A DNA stretch of 64,000 nucleotides. Origin: a virus. The DNA lies in IMG/VR virus record IMGVR_UViG_3300017766_003354, positions 1-64,000 of that record. One strand, 5' to 3'. Each line of letters begins with the position of its first letter. The first letter of the stretch is position 1. The notes below the pieces were generated by a model that saw only the letters and a list, made by a program, of their open reading frames with translations, was not told the origin of the DNA and did no database searches. This document shows positions 7,778-58,723 of this stretch, in pieces. Both the position numbers and the translations under genes were made by a program.

Positions 7778-7971
7778 AAAAAGGCCAATCAATTACCGCA
7801 AAAAATGGAAAACTCCGCATTAAATATGATCCTGAATGGAGTCCTTCAATGCCGTTTTGCACCTATGAGAACGGGACGGCTGGCCGTTCTTTTGGGAGTC
7901 TGACCGCCGCAACGAATTACTTTTCAAATAAAAATGGACAAGTAAATCATCGCTGGTCAGACTTTAAATAA
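7774..7971 (+). CDS. hypothetical protein
   Basis: ATGA overlap; stop abuts repeat 7. Confidence 0.65.
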   Translation: MKKGQSITAKNGKLRIKYDPEWSPSMPFCTYENGTAGRSFGSLTAATNYFSNKNGQVNHRWSDFK

Positions 7972-51533: not shown

Positions 51534-51608
51534 GGTGCTATAGTTTAAAAGTAAGAACTCCTGACTTTCAATCAGAGGATCTCGGAGCGTTACCGAGTAG
51601 CACTTCCA
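51534..51608 (+). tRNA. tRNA-Glu(TTC)
   Basis: cloverleaf, GGTGCTA/TAGCACT, CCA; atypical T loop. Confidence 0.85.
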
Positions 51609-51616
51609 TTTTTTAT

Positions 51617-51692
51617 CAGGGTATGGTGTAACTTGGTAGCACGATACATTTGGGATGTATTAGTTTCGGCTCAAATCCGAATATCCTGACCA
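51617..51692 (+). tRNA. tRNA-Pro(TGG)
   Basis: cloverleaf, CCA. Confidence 0.9.
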
Positions 51693-51705
51693 ATTTATAA
51701 ATTCA

Positions 51706-51881
51706 GACAAAGGGGCAGTTCGAATCTGCGGTATTCCTTGAGGATATAAGGTGTAATGGATGCACGTTGTCGCAAATTCTTGAGGATCGGTTCGATTCCG
51801 ATATTGGTGTAACGGTAGCACGCAAGCAACACCCTAAGAACGGTTCGATTCCGTATAAATAGTGTAACGGCAGCACGGGGG
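51706..51881 (+). ncRNA. three tandem circularly permuted tRNA-elbow (T-arm then D-arm) modules
   Basis: GTTCGA T-arms at 51715, 51786, 51840, each followed by a GTGTAA.GG..GCAC D-arm and closed by its own short stem. Confidence 0.7.
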
Positions 51882-51892
51882 CAATTTTCAAT

Positions 51893-51969
51893 AGCGCGGA
51901 GGACAAGAAGGTTAGTCACTAGGCTCATAACCTAGGTTCTGGTGGATTCGAGCGCCACCTGCGCAACCA
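51893..51969 (+). tRNA. tRNA-Met(CAT), 1:72 mismatch (initiator-like)
   Basis: CTAGG CT CAT AA CCTAG, CCA. Confidence 0.8.
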
Positions 51970-51977
51970 TTTTCAAT

Positions 51978-52053
51978 TGGACAGCAAGCATATAAGTGTG
52001 CAAGAGTCTCATACGCTCTCATCGTATCGGTGCAATTCCGATCTGTCCTACCA
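51978..52053 (+). tRNA. tRNA(CAT) Met or Ile2
   Basis: AGAGT CT CAT AC GCTCT, CCA. Confidence 0.8.
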
Positions 52054-52153
52054 ATTTTCGCTGCATATCAATAAACGAATTCGCGATTAGTTTTTTGAGA
52101 AGGTGGAATGGGTTGGGCTAAAGCAAATGACCAACCGCAGCGATTAATTCAAA

Positions 52154-52206
52154 CGCCTCCTGCTGGCTAGCGCATCGGGATCATGACCTGATATGGGAGG
52201 CGACCA
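52154..52206 (+). ncRNA. 53-nt T-armless mini-tRNA-like RNA with CAT loop and ACCA end
   Basis: CGCCTCC/GGAGGCG-ACCA; TCGGG AT CAT GA CCTGA. Confidence 0.55.
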
Positions 52207-52219
52207 ATTTATACATCTT

Positions 52220-52288
52220 GAAGAAGACTGGTTCGAATCCAGCGCAACTACCCGTAGGTGGGCGCGTAGTGTAATGGCAGCACACTTC
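52220..52288 (+). ncRNA. single permuted tRNA-elbow module (YrlA-like topology)
   Basis: GAAG-aaga-CTGGTTCGAATCCAG-hairpin-TAGTGTAATGGCAGCAC-a-CTTC. Confidence 0.65.
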
Positions 52289-52300
52289 TATTGTTTTTAT

Positions 52301-52383
52301 GTGAGTCTAAAGCTAGTGGCTCTAGCAAGAAGTCTGTAAAACTTCTCCTTCGGGGCGAGGATCGAAACCTCAGACTCACACCA
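52301..52383 (+). tRNA. tRNA-Tyr(GTA)
   Basis: cloverleaf with variable arm, CCA. Confidence 0.85.
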
Positions 52384-52530
52384 CTTTTTGCTAAAGCATC
52401 TTTGGCTTGATGCTGTCCCACAGGACTATATCGCATAACCTACGAACAAAGGCCAAGTTCTATAGGGGTATAGCGGGAAACCCGATCAAGTCGGGTGAGG
52501 CGGTTCAATTCCGCAGGCAAAATTTTTAAT

Positions 52531-52605
52531 GGCCCGTTCGTTTAGTGTAAAGGACCGCGTGCTTCTAACGCGCAGACAGAGGTTAGATTCCTCTACGGGC
52601 TACCA
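52531..52605 (+). tRNA. tRNA-Arg(TCT)
   Basis: cloverleaf, CCA. Confidence 0.9.
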
Positions 52606-52611
52606 ATTTAT

Positions 52612-52699
52612 GGAACATTAACCCCTGAGCTTGGGGCGTGTCTTGGAAAGACAATGGCGGCTGAAAGGTCGTGGGCTTGGAGTGCTCAGTGTTCCTCCA
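52612..52699 (+). tRNA. tRNA-Ser(GGA)
   Basis: long variable arm, CCA, atypical T loop. Confidence 0.75.
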
Positions 52700-52704
52700 C
52701 TTTT

Positions 52705-52795
52705 GGATTGTTAATTCAGACGGCTCTGAACGCTGTTTCGAAAGCAGTTGGTTCCGCAAAAACGGGATAGGGATCGACCCCCTAGCAATCCTCCA
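52705..52795 (+). tRNA. tRNA-Ser(CGA)
   Basis: long variable arm, CCA. Confidence 0.8.
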
Positions 52796-52797
52796 AT

Positions 52798-52889
52798 GGG
52801 TAATTTATCGCAACGGCTTGCGACTCTGCTTTGAAACCAGATGATGGGGTTAGTAGCCTCATAGGGATCGACACCCTAGTTGCCCTCCA
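52798..52889 (+). tRNA. tRNA-Ser(TGA)
   Basis: long variable arm, CCA. Confidence 0.8.
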
Positions 52890-52987
52890 CTTTTAGCCAG
52901 TAAAACCGTCAAAAAAGTCATTGACAAAATCGTGACAAGCGACTAGGATTGTGGCGCAACGCAAGACTAGCTGGTTAATTCTTCAAA

Positions 52988-53064
52988 ACACCATCAGACT
53001 GTGGGCAAGTCGAGAACCCTCCAAAAGTTCTGCTTAAAGGATTCGATTTCCTTGTGGTGTGCCA
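52988..53064 (+). tRNA. tRNA-Trp(CCA)
   Basis: cloverleaf, G73, CCA. Confidence 0.85.
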
Positions 53065-53072
53065 ATTTTAAT

Positions 53073-53143
53073 GACCTGATGATGTAACGACAGCATACTG
53101 CGCGGGAGCGTAGAAGAGGGGCTAGAATCCCCAACGGTCGCTA
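53073..53143 (+). ncRNA. tRNA-like RNA with the anticodon loop replaced by a GGGA tetraloop (pseudo-tRNA or decoy)
   Basis: D arm ATGT..GCAT, CTGCGC GGGA GCGTAG, T arm GGGG CTAGAAT CCCC, ends GCTA. Confidence 0.55.
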
Positions 53144-53152
53144 ATTTTCAAT

Positions 53153-53237
53153 GGGCGTGTGAGAGAATGGTTATCTAGCGGTCTTTTAAACCGAGGGCGA
53201 AAGCCCAACGTGGGTTCAATCCCCACCGCGCCTACCA
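53153..53237 (+). tRNA. tRNA-Lys(TTT) with long variable arm
   Basis: GCGGT CT TTT AA ACCGA; GGGC GAAA GCCC arm; CCA. Confidence 0.85.
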
Positions 53238-53243
53238 ATTTTA

Positions 53244-53330
53244 GCAAGTGTGACAGAATGATCATGTATCCGTCTCTTAAACGGCAGAGAGAAATCTCTA
53301 ATGTGGGTTTGAATCCCACCGCTTGCACCA
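53244..53330 (+). tRNA. tRNA-Lys(CTT) with long variable arm
   Basis: CCGT CT CTT AA ACGG; AGAG AAAT CTCT arm; CCA. Confidence 0.85.
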
Positions 53331-53341
53331 AAATTTTTCAT

Positions 53342-53431
53342 AGTATAGTGGCGGAATTGGAAGACGCGCTCGCCTGTTAAGTGAGAGTTCCGAAAGGACA
53401 CCTGTAGGATCGTGGCCTACCTATACTGCCA
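53342..53431 (+). tRNA. tRNA-Asn(GTT) on a Leu-like class II body
   Basis: GTGGCGGAATTGGAAGACGC D region, long variable arm, G73, CCA. Confidence 0.8.
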
Positions 53432-53437
53432 ATTTTT

Positions 53438-53513
53438 CCTGTCTGAGCAAGTCTGGTGATTGCGCTTGGTTGAAGCCCAAGTTAATCGTGTTCGATCCAC
53501 GGAGACAGGACCA
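53438..53513 (+). tRNA. tRNA-Phe(GAA)
   Basis: CTTGG TT GAA GC CCAAG, CCA. Confidence 0.85.
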
Positions 53514-53635
53514 TTTCAATGAGCGGCGTATGACAGCCTTTCAACGCTTAAATCATATCTGCGTTGGAGCCCAAGAAAATAAGCTGAATAACTACGAGGT
53601 ATCCCGCTCACCCTTTTCTAGCAAGTGTCGCATAG

Positions 53636-54133
53636 TCATTTGCGTTTACCTGAAAACGTCAAAGTTTGCGAATGACAATTTGGACAAAGAAACCTTAAAT
53701 TACTCAAGCGATTATCATTATTAATTCCATTGATGTGATCTAATTGTAGAGAAAGCGGTTTATTATTGTAGGTTCCTTGATTGCCGCATTCAGCGCATTC
53801 ATACTTCCAACCAAAATCTTGTAATAAACGACTTTTTATATTGTTGCCACTAACATAAGAAGAGTTTTCCACAAAAATATCTTCATTGTCTCGCTTGTTA
53901 ATTGGGCTTAACTTCTTTGCTTGTTCTTGTTTAAAGTTCTTCTTGTTGGCAGTAAAAAGAGTTAAGTCAAAATTTTCTTCCTTGATTCGTTTTTTAATTG
54001 TCCTGTGGTTTCCATTATAACCACCAAAACCTAATTTCTTTAAAATTTCGACAATAGACGAGCTTTCATTTAATAACCTTTGAAAATCATCGAAACTCGT
54101 TGTCCACACTATACTTTTTCTCGTAATCTTCAT
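53636..54133 (-). CDS. HNH homing endonuclease in the tRNA array
   Basis: CAECG...LQLDHINGINNDNRLSNLRFLCPNCHSQT; start ATG 54133. Confidence 0.92.
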   Translation of the reverse strand: MKITRKSIVWTTSFDDFQRLLNESSSIVEILKKLGFGGYNGNHRTIKKRIKEENFDLTLFTANKKNFKQEQAKKLSPINKRDNEDIFVENSSYVSGNNIKSRLLQDFGWKYECAECGNQGTYNNKPLSLQLDHINGINNDNRLSNLRFLCPNCHSQTLTFSGKRK

Positions 54134-54174
54134 GTGGTATATTACACATAAAGACACAATACGGGACTTTTCAT

Positions 54175-54250
54175 GCGTCATTCGCCTAATGGTATGGCAC
54201 TTCGCTTCCAACGAAGAACAGCATCAGTTCGATTCTGATATGGCGCACCA
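54175..54250 (+). tRNA. tRNA-Gly(TCC)
   Basis: cloverleaf, A73, CCA. Confidence 0.9.
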
Positions 54251-54253
54251 ATT

Positions 54254-54438
54254 TTCTATCAAAACCCTGAAAAGGTGGCGAAGTTTGTAAGCCAGTCATG
54301 GAAAGGCGCTAGGTGGGTCAAAGAATAAAGTTGGGAAACCTTAATCGGCGTGAAACCCGAACGTGCCTAGTAGCCCATGCGGAGTCACTATCTAAACCTC
54401 ACTCTGTCAAGAGTAAGTTGCGGACTCTATTGATAGAA
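54254..54438 (+). ncRNA. ~185-nt unknown multi-helix RNA
   Basis: TTCTATCAA/TTGATAGAA closing stem; CATGG/CCATG, CTAGG/CCTAG, GAGTC/GACTC helices. Confidence 0.55.
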
Positions 54439-54445
54439 TTTTTAT

Positions 54446-54522
54446 CCGAGAGTAGATTTAACTGGCAAAATCCCTCCCTGTGAAGGAGCCTAATGCGGGT
54501 TCGACTCCCGCCTCGCGGACCA
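54446..54522 (+). tRNA. tRNA-His(GTG), A73, no encoded G-1
   Basis: CTCC CT GTG AA GGAG, GTTCGA T loop, CCA. Confidence 0.85.
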
Positions 54523-54588
54523 TTTCTTTCTTGACAGTCGATTGGACGCCTCTTAATATGCGAACCAGCCAATCGCTTCCCTTTTAAT

Positions 54589-54765
54589 ATGAACACCCCA
54601 AACAACAAAGCCCTAGAAGTGCGCCGAACAAATCAAAAATTCCGCCGACTTTTCAATAGCTCGAAAGACATTGGGGGCAAGCTTTCTTCTTTGCACGTCA
54701 ATCGCGCCCATTGGGGCTCTGGATACAGTAAAAAAGACTTGCCAAAAGATTCGGATATGCAATAA
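54589..54765 (+). CDS. 58-aa basic hypothetical protein in the tRNA array
   Basis: ORF after TTGACA-N17-TAATAT promoter. Confidence 0.5.
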   Translation: MNTPNNKALEVRRTNQKFRRLFNSSKDIGGKLSSLHVNRAHWGSGYSKKDLPKDSDMQ

Positions 54766-54772
54766 TTTCAAT

Positions 54773-54845
54773 CGGGGTGGAGCAGTAAGGTAGATGCAAC
54801 CTGCTCATAACGGGTAAATAGCGGGTTCGAGTCCCGTCGCCCCCA
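54773..54845 (+). tRNA. tRNA(CAT), 1:72 mismatch, CCA not encoded
   Basis: ACCTG CT CAT AA CGGGT; GCGGG TTCGAGT CCCGT. Confidence 0.8.
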
Positions 54846-55200
54846 TTAAGCTCGTATCATGTATTTCCATGTGGCAATTAGAACAAAGAAGATCACATTT
54901 CTTAAACTCCAACAAAATCTTCTCCCAGCCTTGATTTGATAATTTTCTCAAATCTAAAGTAAAAGACTTTTCTTTTGGATTCCTATGGTGAAAACATAAA
55001 GCCCTCAAGCTTTTTGAGTATCCACAAATTTGACATCCTCCACCAGACATTTCAATCAAAAGCCTTTTTCTTTCGTTACCTTTTTTGTTTTGGTTTGCGT
55101 AATTTTGATGGTTCTTATTGGATAAGTGATTTTTACATTTTTGAGAACACCATTTTCTTTGACCTCCAGTTAATTCTTTATTACAGTTTTGACAGTTCAT
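54805..55200 (-). CDS. HNH endonuclease with N-terminal Zn finger; 3' end overlaps the tRNA antisense
   Basis: CQNC...WCSQKC; CQICGY...LCFHHRNP..K..C.LLCSNCH. Confidence 0.88.
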   Translation of the reverse strand: MNCQNCNKELTGGQRKWCSQKCKNHLSNKNHQNYANQNKKGNERKRLLIEMSGGGCQICGYSKSLRALCFHHRNPKEKSFTLDLRKLSNQGWEKILLEFKKCDLLCSNCHMEIHDTSLMGATGLEPAIYPL

Positions 55201-55252
55201 ATTAAATGATTACACTCAGATTATGAATATAGTCATAATCTTTTATTTTTAT

Positions 55253-55332
55253 GCAGCAGTATTCCCTCTCCCTACGAAGGAGGTGAAAGGATAATTGGAT
55301 ACATGTAGGTTCGATGCCTATCTGCTGCACCA
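55253..55332 (+). tRNA. D-armless tRNA-Arg(ACG)-like RNA
   Basis: GCAGCAG/CTGCTGC-ACCA, TCTCC CT ACG AA GGAGG, T arm, ~7-nt D replacement, long variable region. Confidence 0.7.
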
Positions 55333-55342
55333 ATTTTCAAAT

Positions 55343-55418
55343 GGCCCTATAGCTGAGTAGGATTTAGCACATGCTTGATAAGCGTGAGACACAGGTTCAA
55401 TCCCTGTTAGGGCTACCA
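55343..55418 (+). tRNA. tRNA-Ile(GAT)
   Basis: cloverleaf, CCA. Confidence 0.9.
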
Positions 55419-55498
55419 TTTTTACTTATTACGAAGAATCTAAAATAGCTGGCATTGTGACCGCTTGAAGTAGTCGGTAGTAAGTAACTAATTTTTAT

Positions 55499-55592
55499 GG
55501 GTCATGGGGCTGCTTGGGGTGGCCATCTCACTTGCAATGAGAAGACATATCGAAAGATATACAGTTGGGTTCAAATCCCAAATGATCCACCA
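55499..55592 (+). tRNA. tRNA-Ala(TGC) with long variable arm
   Basis: G3:U70 present; ATATC GAAA GATAT arm; CCA. Confidence 0.88.
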
Positions 55593-55602
55593 GTTTCAAA
55601 AA

Positions 55603-55678
55603 GCATCGTTGGCTCGACTGTTTAGGCGGGTTCCTGCAAAGTTCCTTTAAGGGGGTTAGATTCCCTCACGATGCTCCA
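55603..55678 (+). tRNA. tRNA-Cys(GCA)
   Basis: U73, CCA; anticodon stem has T-T mismatches. Confidence 0.82.
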
Positions 55679-55720
55679 ATTTTCTCTTGACTTTCTCTGT
55701 TCTTTTGCTAAAAACAAAAC

Positions 55721-55933
55721 ATGACAGCAGAACATCTACAAGAACAAGACGAAATGCACGAAGCGCAGAAACAACAAGTGATCATCGAATCTCTTTCTTC
55801 TCTGCTAAGTGAATGTTTAGAATCAATGAACCAAGATAACTCGTTCAAAGTTCTCGGTATTGAAAATAACAAGTTGATTGTTGAATTTGATATTGTGGAA
55901 ATTGATGATGAGTTTATGTTTCAAGGATATTAA
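55721..55933 (+). CDS. hypothetical acidic protein in the tRNA array
   Basis: ORF with TTGACT promoter; paralog at 49439. Confidence 0.7.
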   Translation: MTAEHLQEQDEMHEAQKQQVIIESLSSLLSECLESMNQDNSFKVLGIENNKLIVEFDIVEIDDEFMFQGY

Positions 55934-56042
55934 TTTCAAATAATGAGCGCCCAAAAGCAAAACGGACTATTTGTGCATCTAGGCACAGGATCGGGGTCTT
56001 GGCGACTTACTCGCCAGTAGTATTGCTCATTGCCTTTTTAAT

Positions 56043-56116
56043 GGGGGATTGATGTAATGGTAGCCTGACTGATTTACATTCAGTTTGCGGGGATTCGACT
56101 TCCTCATCCCCTACCA
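56043..56116 (+). tRNA. tRNA-Val(TAC)
   Basis: cloverleaf, CCA. Confidence 0.88.
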
Positions 56117-56124
56117 ATTTTTAT

Positions 56125-56209
56125 GGTAACGAAGCCGAAGTGGTTTCAGGCGCTACCCTGTCAAGGTAGGAACGAAAGTTCATAGCGAGTTCGATCCTCG
56201 TCGTTACCG
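56125..56209 (+). tRNA. tRNA-Asp(GTC) with variable arm
   Basis: CTACC CT GTC AA GGTAG; GAAC GAAA GTTC arm; G73. Confidence 0.85.
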
Positions 56210-56219
56210 CCCTTTTCAT

Positions 56220-56297
56220 GCATCAGTATGCTATTGGTATCGCAGCAACGTCGAGAGCGTTGTGTTTTTGTCGGTTCGACTCCGATCTGATGCACCA
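56220..56297 (+). tRNA. tRNA-Leu(GAG), short variable loop, C33
   Basis: CAACG TC GAG AG CGTTG; CCA. Confidence 0.75.
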
Positions 56298-56306
56298 AAT
56301 TTTTAT

Positions 56307-56391
56307 CGGCGCGTGGGTTAATCGAGAACGGCAGATCACAGATACTTAGAATATCTGACCCTTGGAGGTTCAATTCCTCTCGCGCCGACCA
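56307..56391 (+). tRNA. tRNA-Leu(TAG), enlarged D loop, no variable arm
   Basis: CAGATA CT TAG AA TATCTG; CCA. Confidence 0.8.
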
Positions 56392-56398
56392 TTTTTTA

Positions 56399-56480
56399 CG
56401 GCATGTGGGTTAATCGGGAATAGCAGACTACACTTACTCAAAATAAGTGACCCTTGAAGGTGCAAGTCCTTTCATGCCGA
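56399..56480 (+). tRNA. tRNA-Leu(CAA), paralog of the previous tRNA
   Basis: CACTTA CT CAA AA TAAGTG; CCA not encoded. Confidence 0.78.
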
Positions 56481-56491
56481 CTTTTTTTAAT

Positions 56492-56577
56492 GGTATAGTG
56501 GATAAGCGAAATTGGCGACAAGCGAAAGATTTAAAATCTTTTATCCTCTGTGGGTTCGAATCCCACCTATACTACCA
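56492..56577 (+). tRNA. tRNA-Leu(TAA)
   Basis: AAAGA TT TAA AA TCTTT; GTTCGAATC; CCA. Confidence 0.82.
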
Positions 56578-56583
56578 ATTCAT

Positions 56584-56669
56584 GGATCGTAAATCAACAA
56601 GGCGTTGACTCTTCCTGCTAAGAAGGTGGAGGTTTAAAAAACCTTTCAGTTCAAATCTGATGCGATCCT
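56584..56669 (+). tRNA. tRNA-Ser(GCT)
   Basis: long variable arm; CCA not encoded. Confidence 0.8.
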
Positions 56670-56706
56670 CTCTTCCCTCTCTTGACTCATTCGTGTAAAG
56701 AGAAAT

Positions 56707-57117
56707 GTGACTGTAAATGATAAAGGAAATATTGGGTTGACTAAAGTAATGTCTGATTTAACTGAAAAGGGTTATTCGGTTTTTTTACCGATAGCAGATA
56801 CTAGTTGCGTAGATTTAATTGCGGCTGACGAAGGAATGAATATAAAAAAGATACAAATTAAATATCGCAAAGTTAATAAATTCGGAGTGATTTGTGTTCA
56901 AACTCGCTCTGTTGTCAACGGAAAAAGTATCCCCATTCCTTTAGAACAAATTGATCTTTGGGCTATCTATTGCCCCGATACAAAGCAAATTTATTATTTA
57001 TCTTCTGATATTTTGAAAGGAAAGTCTGTTCTTTCTTTGCGGGTAGATAAAGAAGTAAGAAAATGCGAACAAACAACTTTCGCAGACCAATTCACCGATA
57101 TTAAGAAAGTTTGGTGA
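56707..57117 (+). CDS. PD-(D/E)XK homing-type endonuclease (group I intron-associated family), free-standing
   Basis: KGNIG...L..KGYSVFLP....VDLI...KKIQIKY...IDLWAIYCP. Confidence 0.85.
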   Translation: MTVNDKGNIGLTKVMSDLTEKGYSVFLPIADTSCVDLIAADEGMNIKKIQIKYRKVNKFGVICVQTRSVVNGKSIPIPLEQIDLWAIYCPDTKQIYYLSSDILKGKSVLSLRVDKEVRKCEQTTFADQFTDIKKVW

Positions 57118-57143
57118 TTGTCATTAAAACTTTAAATTTCCCA

Positions 57144-57217
57144 GCCTTCATAGTTCAATGGTAGAACTTCAGTTTTGTAATCTGAAAACCCCAGTTCGAT
57201 TCTGGGTGTCGGCTCCA
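57144..57217 (+). tRNA. tRNA-Thr(TGT)
   Basis: cloverleaf, CCA. Confidence 0.88.
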
Positions 57218-57223
57218 CTTTCT

Positions 57224-57297
57224 GGTCTATTCGTCTAGTGATAGGACTCTCCCCTCGTAAGGTAGAAGCGGGTGTTTGATCCACCCATAGACCTCCA
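57224..57297 (+). tRNA. tRNA-Thr(CGT)
   Basis: cloverleaf, CCA. Confidence 0.78.
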
Positions 57298-57303
57298 GTT
57301 TTA

Positions 57304-57382
57304 GCGAATGTCGCATAGTGGCCTATTGCACTACATTGCCAATGTAGAATAAACGCAGGTTCAAATCCTGTCATTCGCACCA
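57304..57382 (+). tRNA. tRNA-Gly(GCC)
   Basis: cloverleaf, A73, CCA. Confidence 0.9.
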
Positions 57383-57390
57383 ATTTCAAC

Positions 57391-57465
57391 GGACCATAAG
57401 CTTTGATGTTGAAGCCCTTCTTGGTATGAAGGAAGAACGCAGTTAGAATCTGCGGTGGTCCTCCA
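57391..57465 (+). tRNA. tRNA-Thr(GGT)
   Basis: cloverleaf, CCA. Confidence 0.82.
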
Positions 57466-57517: not shown

Positions 57518-58723
57518 ATGCAAGTAATAAAAAACATCCCTGTCTGGGGAGAAGTTCAAGAAAATGCGGTTGATCAAATGGCTAACGCTCTTAATTGTGG
57601 AGCTTATAAGGCTGCTTTGATGGGGGATCATCATTTGGGCTATTCTGTTCCTGTAGGGGGAGTTATCGCTTATAAGAATGCTATTTCTCCTTCTGGTGTT
57701 GGATTTGATATTGCTTGCGGCAATAAAGCAGTTCTTACTGATGCTTTTCTTCCTGACGTTCTTCCATTTATTGAAAAAATAATGGATGATGTTTTTCGCA
57801 ACATTTCTTTCGGAATTGGAAGAGTTTCAAACTCAAAACATATTGTTGGTCAAAAAGACCCAAGTGATCACCCCTTGTTTAATGACGAAGCTTGGAATAT
57901 TCCTGCAATTTCTGGATACAAAGACTTGGCCCGAAATCAACTAGGAACAGTTGGTTCTGGCAATCACTATGTTGATATATTTGCCGATAATTTTGGTCGT
58001 ATTTGGATTGGAGTCCACTTTGGTTCTCGCGGATTAGGACACAAAACAGCTTCTCATTACATTAAAGAAGGCGGTGGAACAGACGGAATGTTTGTTAATC
58101 CTGTTGTTCTTGATGCTGATTCAGAATTGGGTAAAGAATATATTGCTGCAATGAATCTTGCTGGACGATATGCCTATGCTGGTCGTGATTGGGTTTGCGA
58201 AGAAGTCGCTCGTATCTTGGGGGCTAATATTTTAGACTCTGTTCATAATCATCATAACTTCGCTTGGCTCGAAAACCATGAAGGAGAAGATCTGTGGGTA
58301 GTCCGCAAAGGAGCAACTCCAGCTTTCCCAAATCAAAAAGGATTCGTTGGAGGAACGATGGGCGAAAATTCTGTAATCTTAGAAGGAATTAATCATCTAG
58401 AATGCAAAACTTCTTTATATTCTACTGTCCACGGAGCAGGTCGCGTTATGTCACGAACTGAAGCTGCGGGCAAATCAAAATGGAAACAAGGAAAGAAAAC
58501 CCGTATTTCTGAAGGCAAAGTTTCTCAAGAAATGATGAATGATTGGATTTCTAAAAAGGGAGTCTGCCTTCGTGGCGCGGGGGTTGATGAATCTCCTCAT
58601 TGCTATAAAAGACTTGACGAAGTTCTTGAAGCCCACACAAATACAATTAAAATCTTACATAGTCTGACTCCTATCGGTGTCGCAATGGCAGGAAATGAAG
58701 TTTTCGACCCATATAAAGATTAG
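57518..58723 (+). CDS. rtcB: RtcB 3'-phosphate/5'-OH RNA ligase
   Basis: DHHLGY.VPVGGV, VGFDIACG, LGTVGSGNHY, VHFGSRGLG, HNHHN, VRKGATPA, HGAGR, DESP..YK. Confidence 0.95.
   Translation: MQVIKNIPVWGEVQENAVDQMANALNCGAYKAALMGDHHLGYSVPVGGVIAYKNAISPSGVGFDIACGNKAVLTDAFLPDVLPFIEKIMDDVFRNISFGIGRVSNSKHIVGQKDPSDHPLFNDEAWNIPAISGYKDLARNQLGTVGSGNHYVDIFADNFGRIWIGVHFGSRGLGHKTASHYIKEGGGTDGMFVNPVVLDADSELGKEYIAAMNLAGRYAYAGRDWVCEEVARILGANILDSVHNHHNFAWLENHEGEDLWVVRKGATPAFPNQKGFVGGTMGENSVILEGINHLECKTSLYSTVHGAGRVMSRTEAAGKSKWKQGKKTRISEGKVSQEMMNDWISKKGVCLRGAGVDESPHCYKRLDEVLEAHTNTIKILHSLTPIGVAMAGNEVFDPYKD

What the first reader, a model, noticed from the sequence alone, without database searches (positions are those of the whole stretch)
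51706..51881. Triple tandem circularly permuted tRNA-elbow RNA with no anticodon and no acceptor end
Seen: three consecutive modules (51706-51771, 51779-51826, 51832-51881). Each runs closing stem, short purine linker (AGGG/AGG/AAGA), T arm with TTCGA loop, short linker or hairpin, D arm (GTGTAA.GG..GCAC), closing stem. The closing stems differ in sequence yet all pair (GACAA/TTGTC, CTTG/CAAG, CCCT/GGGG). The T-before-D order is the reverse of tRNA and matches the tRNA-mimic domain of bacterial YrlA Y RNAs. A concatenated trimer without an obvious Ro-binding stem is not a form I recognise. Inference: a multivalent elbow decoy for host tRNA-binding defence nucleases or sensors, co-transcribed with the tRNA array.
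Basis: partly seen in the sequence, partly recalled or inferred. Interest (0 to 1): 0.78.

Follow-up and report, generated by a model that had tools for sequence, protein, structure and literature searches.

The report
Tandem Ro-less tRNA-mimic RNAs in phage
A lake phage carries four back-to-front tRNA "elbow" RNAs, three of them in a row, among its tRNA genes; they match the tRNA-like part of the Y RNAs that other phages encode next to a Ro60-like protein, but this phage has neither that protein nor the RNA's usual protein-binding handle.

Summary
Positions 51706-51881 contain three adjacent modules, each ordered closing stem, T arm, D arm, closing stem. A fourth module lies at 52220-52288. 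A covariance model of this architecture finds only these four sites in the complete 146.9-kb phage genome.

About 30 other uncultured phages carry the same module. Its closing stem covaries, Rfam has no match, and I found no true copy in 185,579 prokaryote genomes.

In most relatives the module sits inside a ~105-nt RNA with a 7-bp terminal stem and a C(A/C)GCAA motif. That RNA lies just upstream of a DUF2828+DUF7788 gene, and I show this protein has the Ro60 fold. The family is therefore a phage Y-RNA-like (YrlA-type) tRNA mimic. This scan had already noted the family on other DNA.

This case is unusual:
- It has no terminal stem or handle.
- The genome has no Ro60-like gene.
- Three copies stand in tandem, in an array that ends at RtcB.

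My best reading is a set of stand-alone, non-chargeable tRNA-core mimics, excised with the tRNAs, that bind a tRNA-elbow-recognising factor. The decoy function is untested. I class it as a new variant of a known kind.

The parts
51706..51771 (+). Module M1. Closing stem 51706-10/51767-71, linker AGGG, 4-bp T arm 51715-29 (loop TTCGAAT), bulged acceptor-like hairpin 51731-47, AAG, D arm 51751-65, G26.
   Evidence: all pairs standard; R1 43.3 bits. Re-permuted, it is called a tRNA at ARAGORN's 95% threshold.
51772..51778 (+). Linker GCAAATT between M1 and M2. It contains the GCAA core of the motif that is invariant in the Ro60-linked relatives.
   Evidence: GCAA occurs 4 times in 203 nt against 1.1 expected, shuffle p about 0.007.
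51779..51826 (+). Module M2. Closing stem CTTG/CAAG, AGG, 5-bp T arm 51786-51802, ATTG, D arm 51807-21, G26. It has no acceptor arm.
   Evidence: R1 58.1 bits.
51827..51831 (+). Linker CAACA between M2 and M3. Together with the M2 closing strand it reads CGCAAGCAACA.
51832..51881 (+). Module M3. Closing stem CCCT/GGGG, AAGA, 4-bp T arm 51840-54, ATAAATA, D arm 51862-76, G26. It has no acceptor arm. It is followed by CAATTTTCAAT, the spacer that follows the tRNAs of this array.
   Evidence: the MFE of M3 alone is the proposed fold; 55.6 bits.
52220..52288 (+). Module M4, not in the original finding. Closing stem GAAG/CTTC, AAGA, T arm 52228-42, 10-bp acceptor-like hairpin capped CGTA 52243-66, TA, D arm 52269-83, A26.
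   Evidence: 49.6 bits; its MFE is the proposed fold; re-permuted, it is called a 72-nt tRNA at ARAGORN's default threshold.
51617..51692 (+). tRNA-Pro(TGG), 13 nt upstream of M1. It has the same D-stem type (GTGT..GCAC). Its 3' processing would set the 5' end of the trimer RNA.
57518..58723 (+). RtcB RNA ligase gene at the 3' end of the tRNA array. Context only, not shown to interact with the modules.
   Evidence: PF01139, E 3.5e-64.

Best explanation
The trimer and the fourth module are stand-alone copies of the tRNA-mimic domain of a phage Y-RNA-like family. Each module is a circularly permuted tRNA core. A T arm and a D arm can form the tRNA elbow, using G18G19 with U54U55C56 and, in three of the four modules, U8 with A14. 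A 4-5-bp helix closes the module in the position of the anticodon stem. There is no anticodon loop and no free acceptor end, so the RNA can be neither charged nor decoded.

Inferred steps:
- The modules are transcribed with the tRNA array.
- They are released as a ~200-nt three-elbow RNA, plus a separate M4 RNA, when the flanking tRNAs are processed.
- They work without Ro60, by occupying a host or phage factor that recognises the tRNA elbow and core. The tandem copies raise the number of binding sites.
- The setting (an attenuator-controlled tRNA array ending in RtcB) suggests a role in the conflict over tRNA damage and repair.
For: Shown:
- The anatomy and its uniqueness in the genome.
- Re-permutation yields an ARAGORN tRNA call.
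- Across 26 sequences, all 5 closing-stem pairs show changes on both sides. The covariation score is 0.43 against at most 0.10 for slid partners, and 0 of 500 shuffles reach it.
- Within this genome the four closing stems differ in sequence yet all pair.
- The family appears virus-restricted. About 33 true IMG/VR contigs carry it. The strict pattern gives 0 hits and the relaxed pattern gives 7 hits in prokaryote genomes, all 7 being ordinary tRNA-Gln genes.
- Most copies sit in tRNA arrays on the tRNA strand at tRNA-like spacing.
- Relatives carry the module in an RNA with a covarying 7-bp terminal stem and an invariant GCA (GCAA in at least 90% of the 18 sequences).
- That RNA lies immediately upstream, on the same strand, of a DUF2828+DUF7788 gene. 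The gene is present in 11 of 38 module loci against 1 of 80 control loci.
- The 13 best PDB matches of the protein's predicted fold are all Ro60/TROVE structures.
- Handle-less modules occur in genomes without a Ro60-like gene: here (100% complete) and in L035's phage (100% complete). This argues that the tRNA-like domain can act alone.

From the literature: YrlA's tRNA-like domain is modified by TruB and DusA, so it engages tRNA enzymes (PMC4201824). Phage Ro60 with its Yrl RNAs binds host PNPase (PMC12135203).
Against: - No expression, end-mapping or binding data exist.
- Thermodynamic folding does not favour the modular fold: -31.9 against -45.9 kcal/mol, with z-scores near 0.
- No close relative of this phage was found. 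None of the 80 RtcB-relative loci was a close relative, and only one (L062) has a weak module-like hit. Selection on this particular trimer therefore cannot be measured.
- M1 has A instead of U at position 8 and a G.G at the end of its T stem. Its hairpin looks like a partial duplicate of the 5' part of M2, which could mean decay.
- The binding partner is unknown.
- RtcB is not a general companion of the family. It is absent from 6 other module-bearing records.
Confidence: 0.5

Rival explanations
1. It is a polyvalent Y RNA for a host-encoded Ro60 or Ro60-like protein. The GCAA-containing linkers act as minimal protein-binding sites. The RNA would then load several host Ro60 rings, or host PNPase, so the phage hijacks host RNA surveillance without encoding the protein.
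For: GCAA occurs 4 times in the 203-nt trimer RNA, always at module 3' ends or in linkers, against 1.1 expected (p about 0.007). GCA is invariant, and the following A at least 90% conserved, in the Ro60-linked relatives. Ro60 mainly contacts one strand of the Y RNA (PMC4201824). The Yrl RNAs of phage phiLo bind host PNPase (PMC12135203).
Against: There is no 7-bp terminal stem, and the motif lies 2-3 nt from the closing stem instead of about 25 nt upstream. A four-letter motif is weak evidence. The host, and whether it has Ro60, is unknown. Other handle-less modules (L125, L035) have no GCAA beside them.
Confidence: 0.15
2. It is an evolutionary relic. Former Y-like RNAs lost their handle after the phage lost its Ro60-like gene, and they persist as neutral, slowly decaying passengers in the array.
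For: The complete genome has no Ro60-like gene. M1 is the most degenerate module (43 bits, A8, G.G mismatch, duplicated fragment). Predicted stability is low.
Against: Four copies keep all elbow nucleotides and have different but complementary closing stems. M2 and M3 score as well as many Ro60-linked copies (58 and 56 bits). The same handle-less form recurs in independent phages (L016, L035, L125). Phage genomes usually purge useless DNA.
Confidence: 0.15
3. It is a cis-acting element of the polycistronic tRNA precursor. The compact tRNA-like knots would block exonucleases, guide RNase E, P or Z, or help the many odd neighbouring tRNAs to fold. They would have no trans-acting role.
For: The modules lie at tRNA-like spacing, and the tRNA-type spacer CAATTTTCAAT follows M3. 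The array is full of non-canonical tRNAs that might need help. No promoter or terminator lies inside the region.
Against: Homologues that lie next to a Ro60-like gene away from any tRNA (L027, L041, L010/L025) argue for a trans-acting RNP role for the family. Three copies in a row are not needed for punctuation.
Confidence: 0.1
4. The modules are decayed head-to-tail tRNA genes, or a chance juxtaposition of the T arm of one tRNA and the D arm of the next.
For: Tandem tRNAs are a known false positive for YrlA models (PMC4201824). Weak R1 hits of 20-35 bits elsewhere are exactly that.
Against: The gap between T arm and D arm is only 4-7 nt in M2 and M3, which leaves no room for two acceptor strands. 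The closing stems pair in all four modules and covary across the family. The architecture recurs in about 30 phages and is absent from cellular genomes.
Confidence: 0.03

Closest known systems
YrlA Y RNAs of bacteria and mycobacteriophages (Rfam RF02553; Chen et al. 2014, PMC4201824)
   Same: A circularly permuted tRNA-like domain with the T arm first, then an optional closed acceptor-like stem, then the D arm, closed by a stem in the anticodon-stem position. It cannot be charged. It is often multi-copy and processed from one precursor.
   Different: There is no match to RF02553 even at E up to 10. There is no GNCGAA motif. The genome has no Ro60 gene. M2 and M3 have no acceptor-like stem at all. 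Three copies are fused head to tail. The RNA is embedded in a tRNA array.
Phage 'handle' Y-like RNAs (7-bp stem + C(A/C)GCAA + permuted tRNA core) beside DUF2828/DUF7788 Ro60-like genes. Noted earlier by this scan and re-derived here.
   Same: The same permuted core with near-identical T and D arms, the U8 equivalent, the one-base position 26 and a 4-5-bp closing stem (R1 43-58 bits). The same location in phage tRNA arrays.
   Different: The window's copies lack the terminal stem and handle. The complete genome lacks the Ro60-like gene. The copies are concatenated.
Thermus phage phiLo Ro60 with Yrl1 and Yrl2 (PMC12135203; PDB 9KOP, 9L5Y)
   Same: Phage-encoded Y-like RNAs in tandem. The Ro60-like protein of this module's relatives matches 9KOP and 9L5Y best.
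   Different: The phiLo Yrls were defined by a stem-bulge-stem with a CGAA motif, with no tRNA-like domain reported. In phiLo the protein is present, here it is absent.
Circularly permuted tRNA genes of Cyanidioschyzon merolae and some archaea (established knowledge; reviewed in PMC4090602)
   Same: In the gene, the 3' half (T arm) precedes the 5' half (D arm).
   Different: Those genes encode complete tRNAs, including the anticodon loop, and are matured through a circular intermediate into normal tRNAs. The modules here have no anticodon loop, and two of them have no acceptor stem.

Membership tests
YrlA (Rfam RF02553) | T arm before D arm, closed by a helix in the anticodon-stem position (permuted tRNA-like domain) | tested here: met
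   Re-permuted M4 and M1 are called tRNAs.
YrlA (Rfam RF02553) | Scores against the Rfam covariance model (gathering score 69 bits) | tested here: not met
   No YrlA hit on the modules at E up to 10. A search of the whole genome gives only 10-12-bit T-arm matches elsewhere.
YrlA (Rfam RF02553) | GNCGAAN0-1G motif near the 5' end (presumed Ro60 contact) | tested here: not met
   No GNCGAA in 51650-52320.
YrlA (Rfam RF02553) | Encoded within about 4 kb of a Ro60 (TROVE) gene on the same strand | tested here: not met
   No TROVE, DUF2828 or DUF7788 gene in the complete 146.9-kb genome.
YrlA (Rfam RF02553) | [quoted passage not shown] | tested here: inconclusive
   Present in M1 (bulged, 6 bp) and M4 (10 bp with 2 mismatches). 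Absent in M2 and M3, which have 4-7-nt linkers.
YrlA (Rfam RF02553) | Bound by Ro60/Rsr, and pseudouridine and dihydrouridine added by TruB and DusA | not testable with these tools
   Needs immunoprecipitation and modification mapping.
Phage handle-type Y-like RNA beside DUF2828/DUF7788 Ro60-like genes | Permuted T/D core with a covarying closing stem | tested here: met
   R1 43-58 bits. Covariation shown.
Phage handle-type Y-like RNA beside DUF2828/DUF7788 Ro60-like genes | 7-bp terminal stem followed by C(A/C)GCAA | tested here: not met
   No terminal stem encloses any module. Only bare GCAA occurs in the linkers. The genome-wide handle scan gives chance-level hits and none in the array.
Phage handle-type Y-like RNA beside DUF2828/DUF7788 Ro60-like genes | Ro60-fold protein gene downstream or elsewhere in the genome | tested here: not met
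   Positive controls were found in G001, G003, G004 and G009.
Canonical tRNA | Acceptor stem with a free 3' end, anticodon stem-loop, and D before T | tested here: not met
   ARAGORN and Rfam tRNA give no call on the native sequence, even at ARAGORN's 90% threshold.
Permuted tRNA genes (C. merolae type) | Both halves of a complete tRNA, including the anticodon loop, at the termini | tested here: not met
   The closing stems abut 5-7-nt linkers or tRNA spacers. No anticodon-loop halves are present. M2 and M3 lack acceptor strands.

The most novel reading that the evidence does not exclude
The tRNA-like domain of Y RNAs is a functional unit in its own right. This phage uses it, freed from Ro60 and multiplied, as a multivalent decoy or sponge for a host factor that docks on the tRNA elbow. 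Candidates are a tRNA-directed defence nuclease or sensor, or the partner that host Ro60-YrlA particles normally recruit. An even bolder variant is that the elbow-only modules complement in trans the elbow-less, T-armless mini-tRNA encoded 14 nt upstream of M4.
Probability: 0.15. Interest if true: 0.85.

Novelty: new variant of a known kind. Interest (0 to 1): 0.58.

Why it matters
The role of the tRNA-like domain of bacterial Y RNAs has been open since 2014. Complete phage genomes (this one and G007) that keep this domain while lacking both the Ro60-binding handle and any Ro60-like gene are natural separation-of-function cases. They suggest that the domain has its own binding partner, and the trimer is a ready-made bait for finding it.

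The work also ties a widespread phage RNA family that Rfam does not hold to a Ro60-fold protein currently filed as DUF2828/DUF7788. It adds one more component to the tRNA array and RtcB toolkit that phages use in conflicts over tRNA damage.

Tried and rejected
- Rfam at gathering and at E up to 10 found nothing but tRNAs on the window, on L013 and on L062. RF02553 on the whole genome gave only T-arm noise.
- blastn of the region, and of a typical relative, against 50,697 phage isolates gave no match.
- I searched for close relatives through RtcB. Of 80 loci, most have no tRNA array next to RtcB, and only one weak module-like hit appeared (L062). No relative carrying the trimer was found, so covariation within the trimer could not be measured.
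- Exact tandem patterns (T-D-T and D-T-D) found only L035 in viral contigs and one 1.8-kb metagenome contig, L125.
- Thermodynamic support is absent. The region and the single modules fold no better than shuffles.
- A link to RtcB as a general partner is rejected, because 6 other module-bearing records lack RtcB.
- I looked for a fixed neighbouring tRNA, such as a CAT anticodon. The neighbours vary.
- phmmer of the DUF2828/DUF7788 protein against PDB sequences, and BLASTP against the TROVE protein of L014, found nothing. Only the fold comparison showed the Ro60 relationship.
- The handle scan of the whole genome gave chance-level hits only.
- An attP or integration-site reading is rejected. 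There is no integrase nearby, and the T arms lack the acceptor 3' strand.
- Complex prediction was not used, because it does not take RNA.

Full report
**Setting.** The window is the first 64 kb of a complete 146,905-bp IMG/VR phage genome with direct terminal repeats. A tRNA array runs on the + strand from 51534 to 57465. ARAGORN finds 18 tRNAs in it, and Rfam adds several more. The array ends at an RtcB ligase gene at 57518-58723 (PF01139, E 3.5e-64). HNH and PD-(D/E)XK endonuclease ORFs are interspersed. No promoter-like or terminator-like site lies between about 51000 and 52760 on the + strand.

**Checking the observation.** There are three units, each ordered closing stem, 3-4 purine-rich bases, T arm (loop TTCGAAT or TTCGATT), linker, D arm (GTGTAAYGGNWGCAC), one base, closing stem.
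- Written out as helices, every pair is a standard pair. M3 has one U.G, and the hairpin of M1 has one bulge.
- The signature GGTTCRAWTCC-N(4-34)-GTGTAAYGG occurs 3 times in the window and never in 100 shuffles.
- One of those hits is a fourth module at 52220-52288. It has a 10-bp acceptor-like hairpin capped by CGTA.
- A covariance model (R1) built from these and related sequences finds exactly these four sites in the whole genome, at 58.1, 55.6, 49.6 and 43.3 bits. The next best hit scores below 18 bits.
- No tRNA finder calls them.
- I opened M4 in its hairpin loop and capped its closing stem with any 7-nt loop. ARAGORN then returns a 72-nt cloverleaf at default settings. M1 does the same at the 95% threshold. 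The native sequences give no call even at 90%. "Circularly permuted tRNA without anticodon loop" is therefore literally correct for M1 and M4. M2 and M3 have also lost the acceptor arm.
- Thermodynamics does not help. The modular fold scores -31.9 kcal/mol against an MFE of -45.9, and z-scores are near zero.

**Relatives.** An exact-pattern scan of IMG/VR found 38 contigs, of which about 33 are true modules and 3 are clear chance hits. A relaxed pattern added two more.
- Nearly all lie inside tRNA arrays, on the tRNA strand, about 40 nt after one tRNA and about 25 nt before the next.
- The same patterns gave 0 hits (strict) and 7 hits (relaxed) in one genome from each of 185,579 prokaryote species. 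All 7 are ordinary tRNA-Gln genes with a chance upstream match.
- Phage isolates in GenBank gave no blastn match.
- On a MAFFT alignment of 26 distinct modules, the closing stem has changes on both sides at all 5 pairs and 86% of its cells paired. The covariation score for the whole 13-pair structure is 0.43 against at most 0.10 when partners are slid, and no shuffle out of 500 reaches it.
- The module is therefore a conserved, structured RNA that appears virus-restricted, and not a decayed pair of tRNAs.

**What the family is.** In most relatives the module is the apical part of a ~105-nt RNA.
- A 7-bp terminal stem covaries: AGGATGC/GCATCCT, AGGTTAA/TTAACCT, AGGATAG/CTATCCT and others. RNAalifold recovers this stem unaided.
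- The stem is followed by a C(A/C)GCAA motif, in which GCA is invariant and the following A is at least 90% conserved across the 18 aligned sequences.
- In at least 9 loci the next ORF downstream, on the same strand and often within 100 nt, is a ~475-aa protein with Pfam DUF2828 + DUF7788. In L014 it is a TROVE protein.
- An HMM of this protein hits 11 of 38 module loci against 1 of 80 control loci, the controls being the RtcB relatives.
- Three more module-bearing records encode it 5-20 kb away.
- Its AlphaFold model (pLDDT 72) has a helical N-terminal part and a vWA domain with an invariant DxSGS motif. Its 13 best PDB matches are all Ro60/TROVE structures: phage phiLo Ro60, D. radiodurans Rsr, and Xenopus and human Ro60, with E values from 1e-8 to 7e-5 over the full length.

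This matches the published picture of a Y RNA: a terminal stem, a conserved single-stranded motif, a tRNA-like domain, and a location just upstream of Ro60 on the same strand (PMC4201824; PMC12135203). Rfam's YrlA model does not detect it. After deriving this I found that earlier agents of this scan had described the same [quoted passage not shown] family on other genomes. So the family is not new to the scan, and my result is an independent re-derivation.

**What is special here.**
- None of the four modules has the terminal stem or handle.
- There is no GNCGAA motif.
- The complete genome has no TROVE, DUF2828 or DUF7788 gene by Pfam models or by my own HMM.
- Three modules are fused with 7-nt and 5-nt linkers.
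- Handle-less modules at tRNA-like spacing also occur in L016, in L035 and as a tandem dimer in L125. L035's genome is 100% complete and has neither a Ro60-like gene nor RtcB.
- The handle-less, Ro60-less form is therefore a recurrent subclass. The triple tandem is so far unique: T-D-T and D-T-D patterns found only L035 and L125.
- The four closing stems differ (GACAA, CTTG, CCCT, GAAG) yet each pairs. This argues that the copies have been maintained since duplication.
- The hairpin of M1 contains a near-copy of the 5' part of M2 (TTCCTTGAGGAT against TTCTTGAGGAT), a trace of the duplication history.

**Mechanism.**
- Shown: the anatomy, the homology, the covariation, the genomic association of relatives with a Ro60-fold protein, and the absence of that protein here.
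- Inferred: co-transcription with the array and release by tRNA-end processing; folding into three independent elbows; and action by binding a factor that recognises the tRNA elbow and core.

Because YrlA's tRNA-like domain is a substrate of TruB and DusA (PMC4201824), and phage Yrl RNAs bind host PNPase (PMC12135203), such engagement is plausible. The partner is unknown.

A second possibility is that the GCAA-rich linkers recruit a host Ro60-type protein. GCAA occurs 4 times against 1.1 expected, p about 0.007. A relic or a purely cis-acting role cannot be excluded without expression data or close relatives.

**Verdict.** I class it as a new variant of a known kind. Its interest is moderate to high because it isolates the tRNA-mimic domain of Y RNAs from Ro60.

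Noticed in passing
window 51893-51969 and 51979-52053: Two tRNA-like genes with CAT anticodon loops (CTCATAA, CTCATAC) directly after the trimer. ARAGORN and Rfam both miss them. They have odd features: a 1:72 mismatch or an extra base before CCA, a 3-bp D stem, and a TGCAATT T loop with no GG in the D loop. Read by eye only.
   Followed up: no
window 52154-52206: A 53-nt T-armless mini-tRNA-like gene with a 7-bp acceptor stem CGCCTCC/GGAGGCG, ACCA and anticodon loop ATCATGA. It lies 14 nt upstream of M4. It has the parts the elbow modules lack.
   Followed up: no
window 52301-52384: A tRNA-Tyr(GTA)-like gene with an 8-bp acceptor stem and a long variable arm, missed by ARAGORN and Rfam. Read by eye only.
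   Followed up: no
L102:10001-13740: In a 239-kb phage contig the RtcB gene is followed about 1.3 kb downstream, on the same strand, by a DUF2828/DUF7788 Ro60-like gene (HMM E 6e-90). This is a phage counterpart of the bacterial rsr-rtcB linkage. No R1-type module lies within 10 kb.
   Followed up: partly
L029:1816-3121 (same in L031): A module with the same GAAG/CTTC closing stem as M4, preceded by CGCAAA, lies 17 nt after a reverse-transcriptase ORF (RVT_1, E 2e-17) and about 30 nt before a ribosome-binding site and ATG. It is not in a tRNA array.
   Followed up: no
L125:568-690 (minus strand): A 1.8-kb metagenome contig carries a tandem dimer of near-identical handle-less modules (GAAG/CTTC and GGAG/CTTC closing stems), 19 nt upstream of a tRNA-Met(CAT).
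   Followed up: partly
L062:6189-6271: A weaker module-like element (29.6 bits, 6-bp closing stem GGCGGG/CCCGCC, imperfect T stem) lies between two tRNAs in an array that, as here, runs into an RtcB gene (60% identical).
   Followed up: partly
window 7897-7966: A 9-bp stem AGTCTGACC/GGTCAGACT encloses a 47-nt loop that begins G-CCGCAA-CGAA, just after a terminator-like hairpin. It resembles a handle-only Y-like hairpin, but the genome-wide scan shows such hits are near the chance level.
   Followed up: partly
window 51731-51747 versus 51775-51786: The acceptor-like hairpin of M1 contains TTCCTTGAGGAT, a near-copy of TTCTTGAGGAT at the start of M2. This quasi-palindromic repeat also drives the competing MFE helix.
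   Followed up: partly
L005:8707-9166; L014:5489-5882; L022:4240-4692: Module-bearing arrays in other phages also hold a GOLLD RNA (225 bits) and phage tmRNAs. L022 has a suppressor-type tRNA with anticodon TTA.
   Followed up: no
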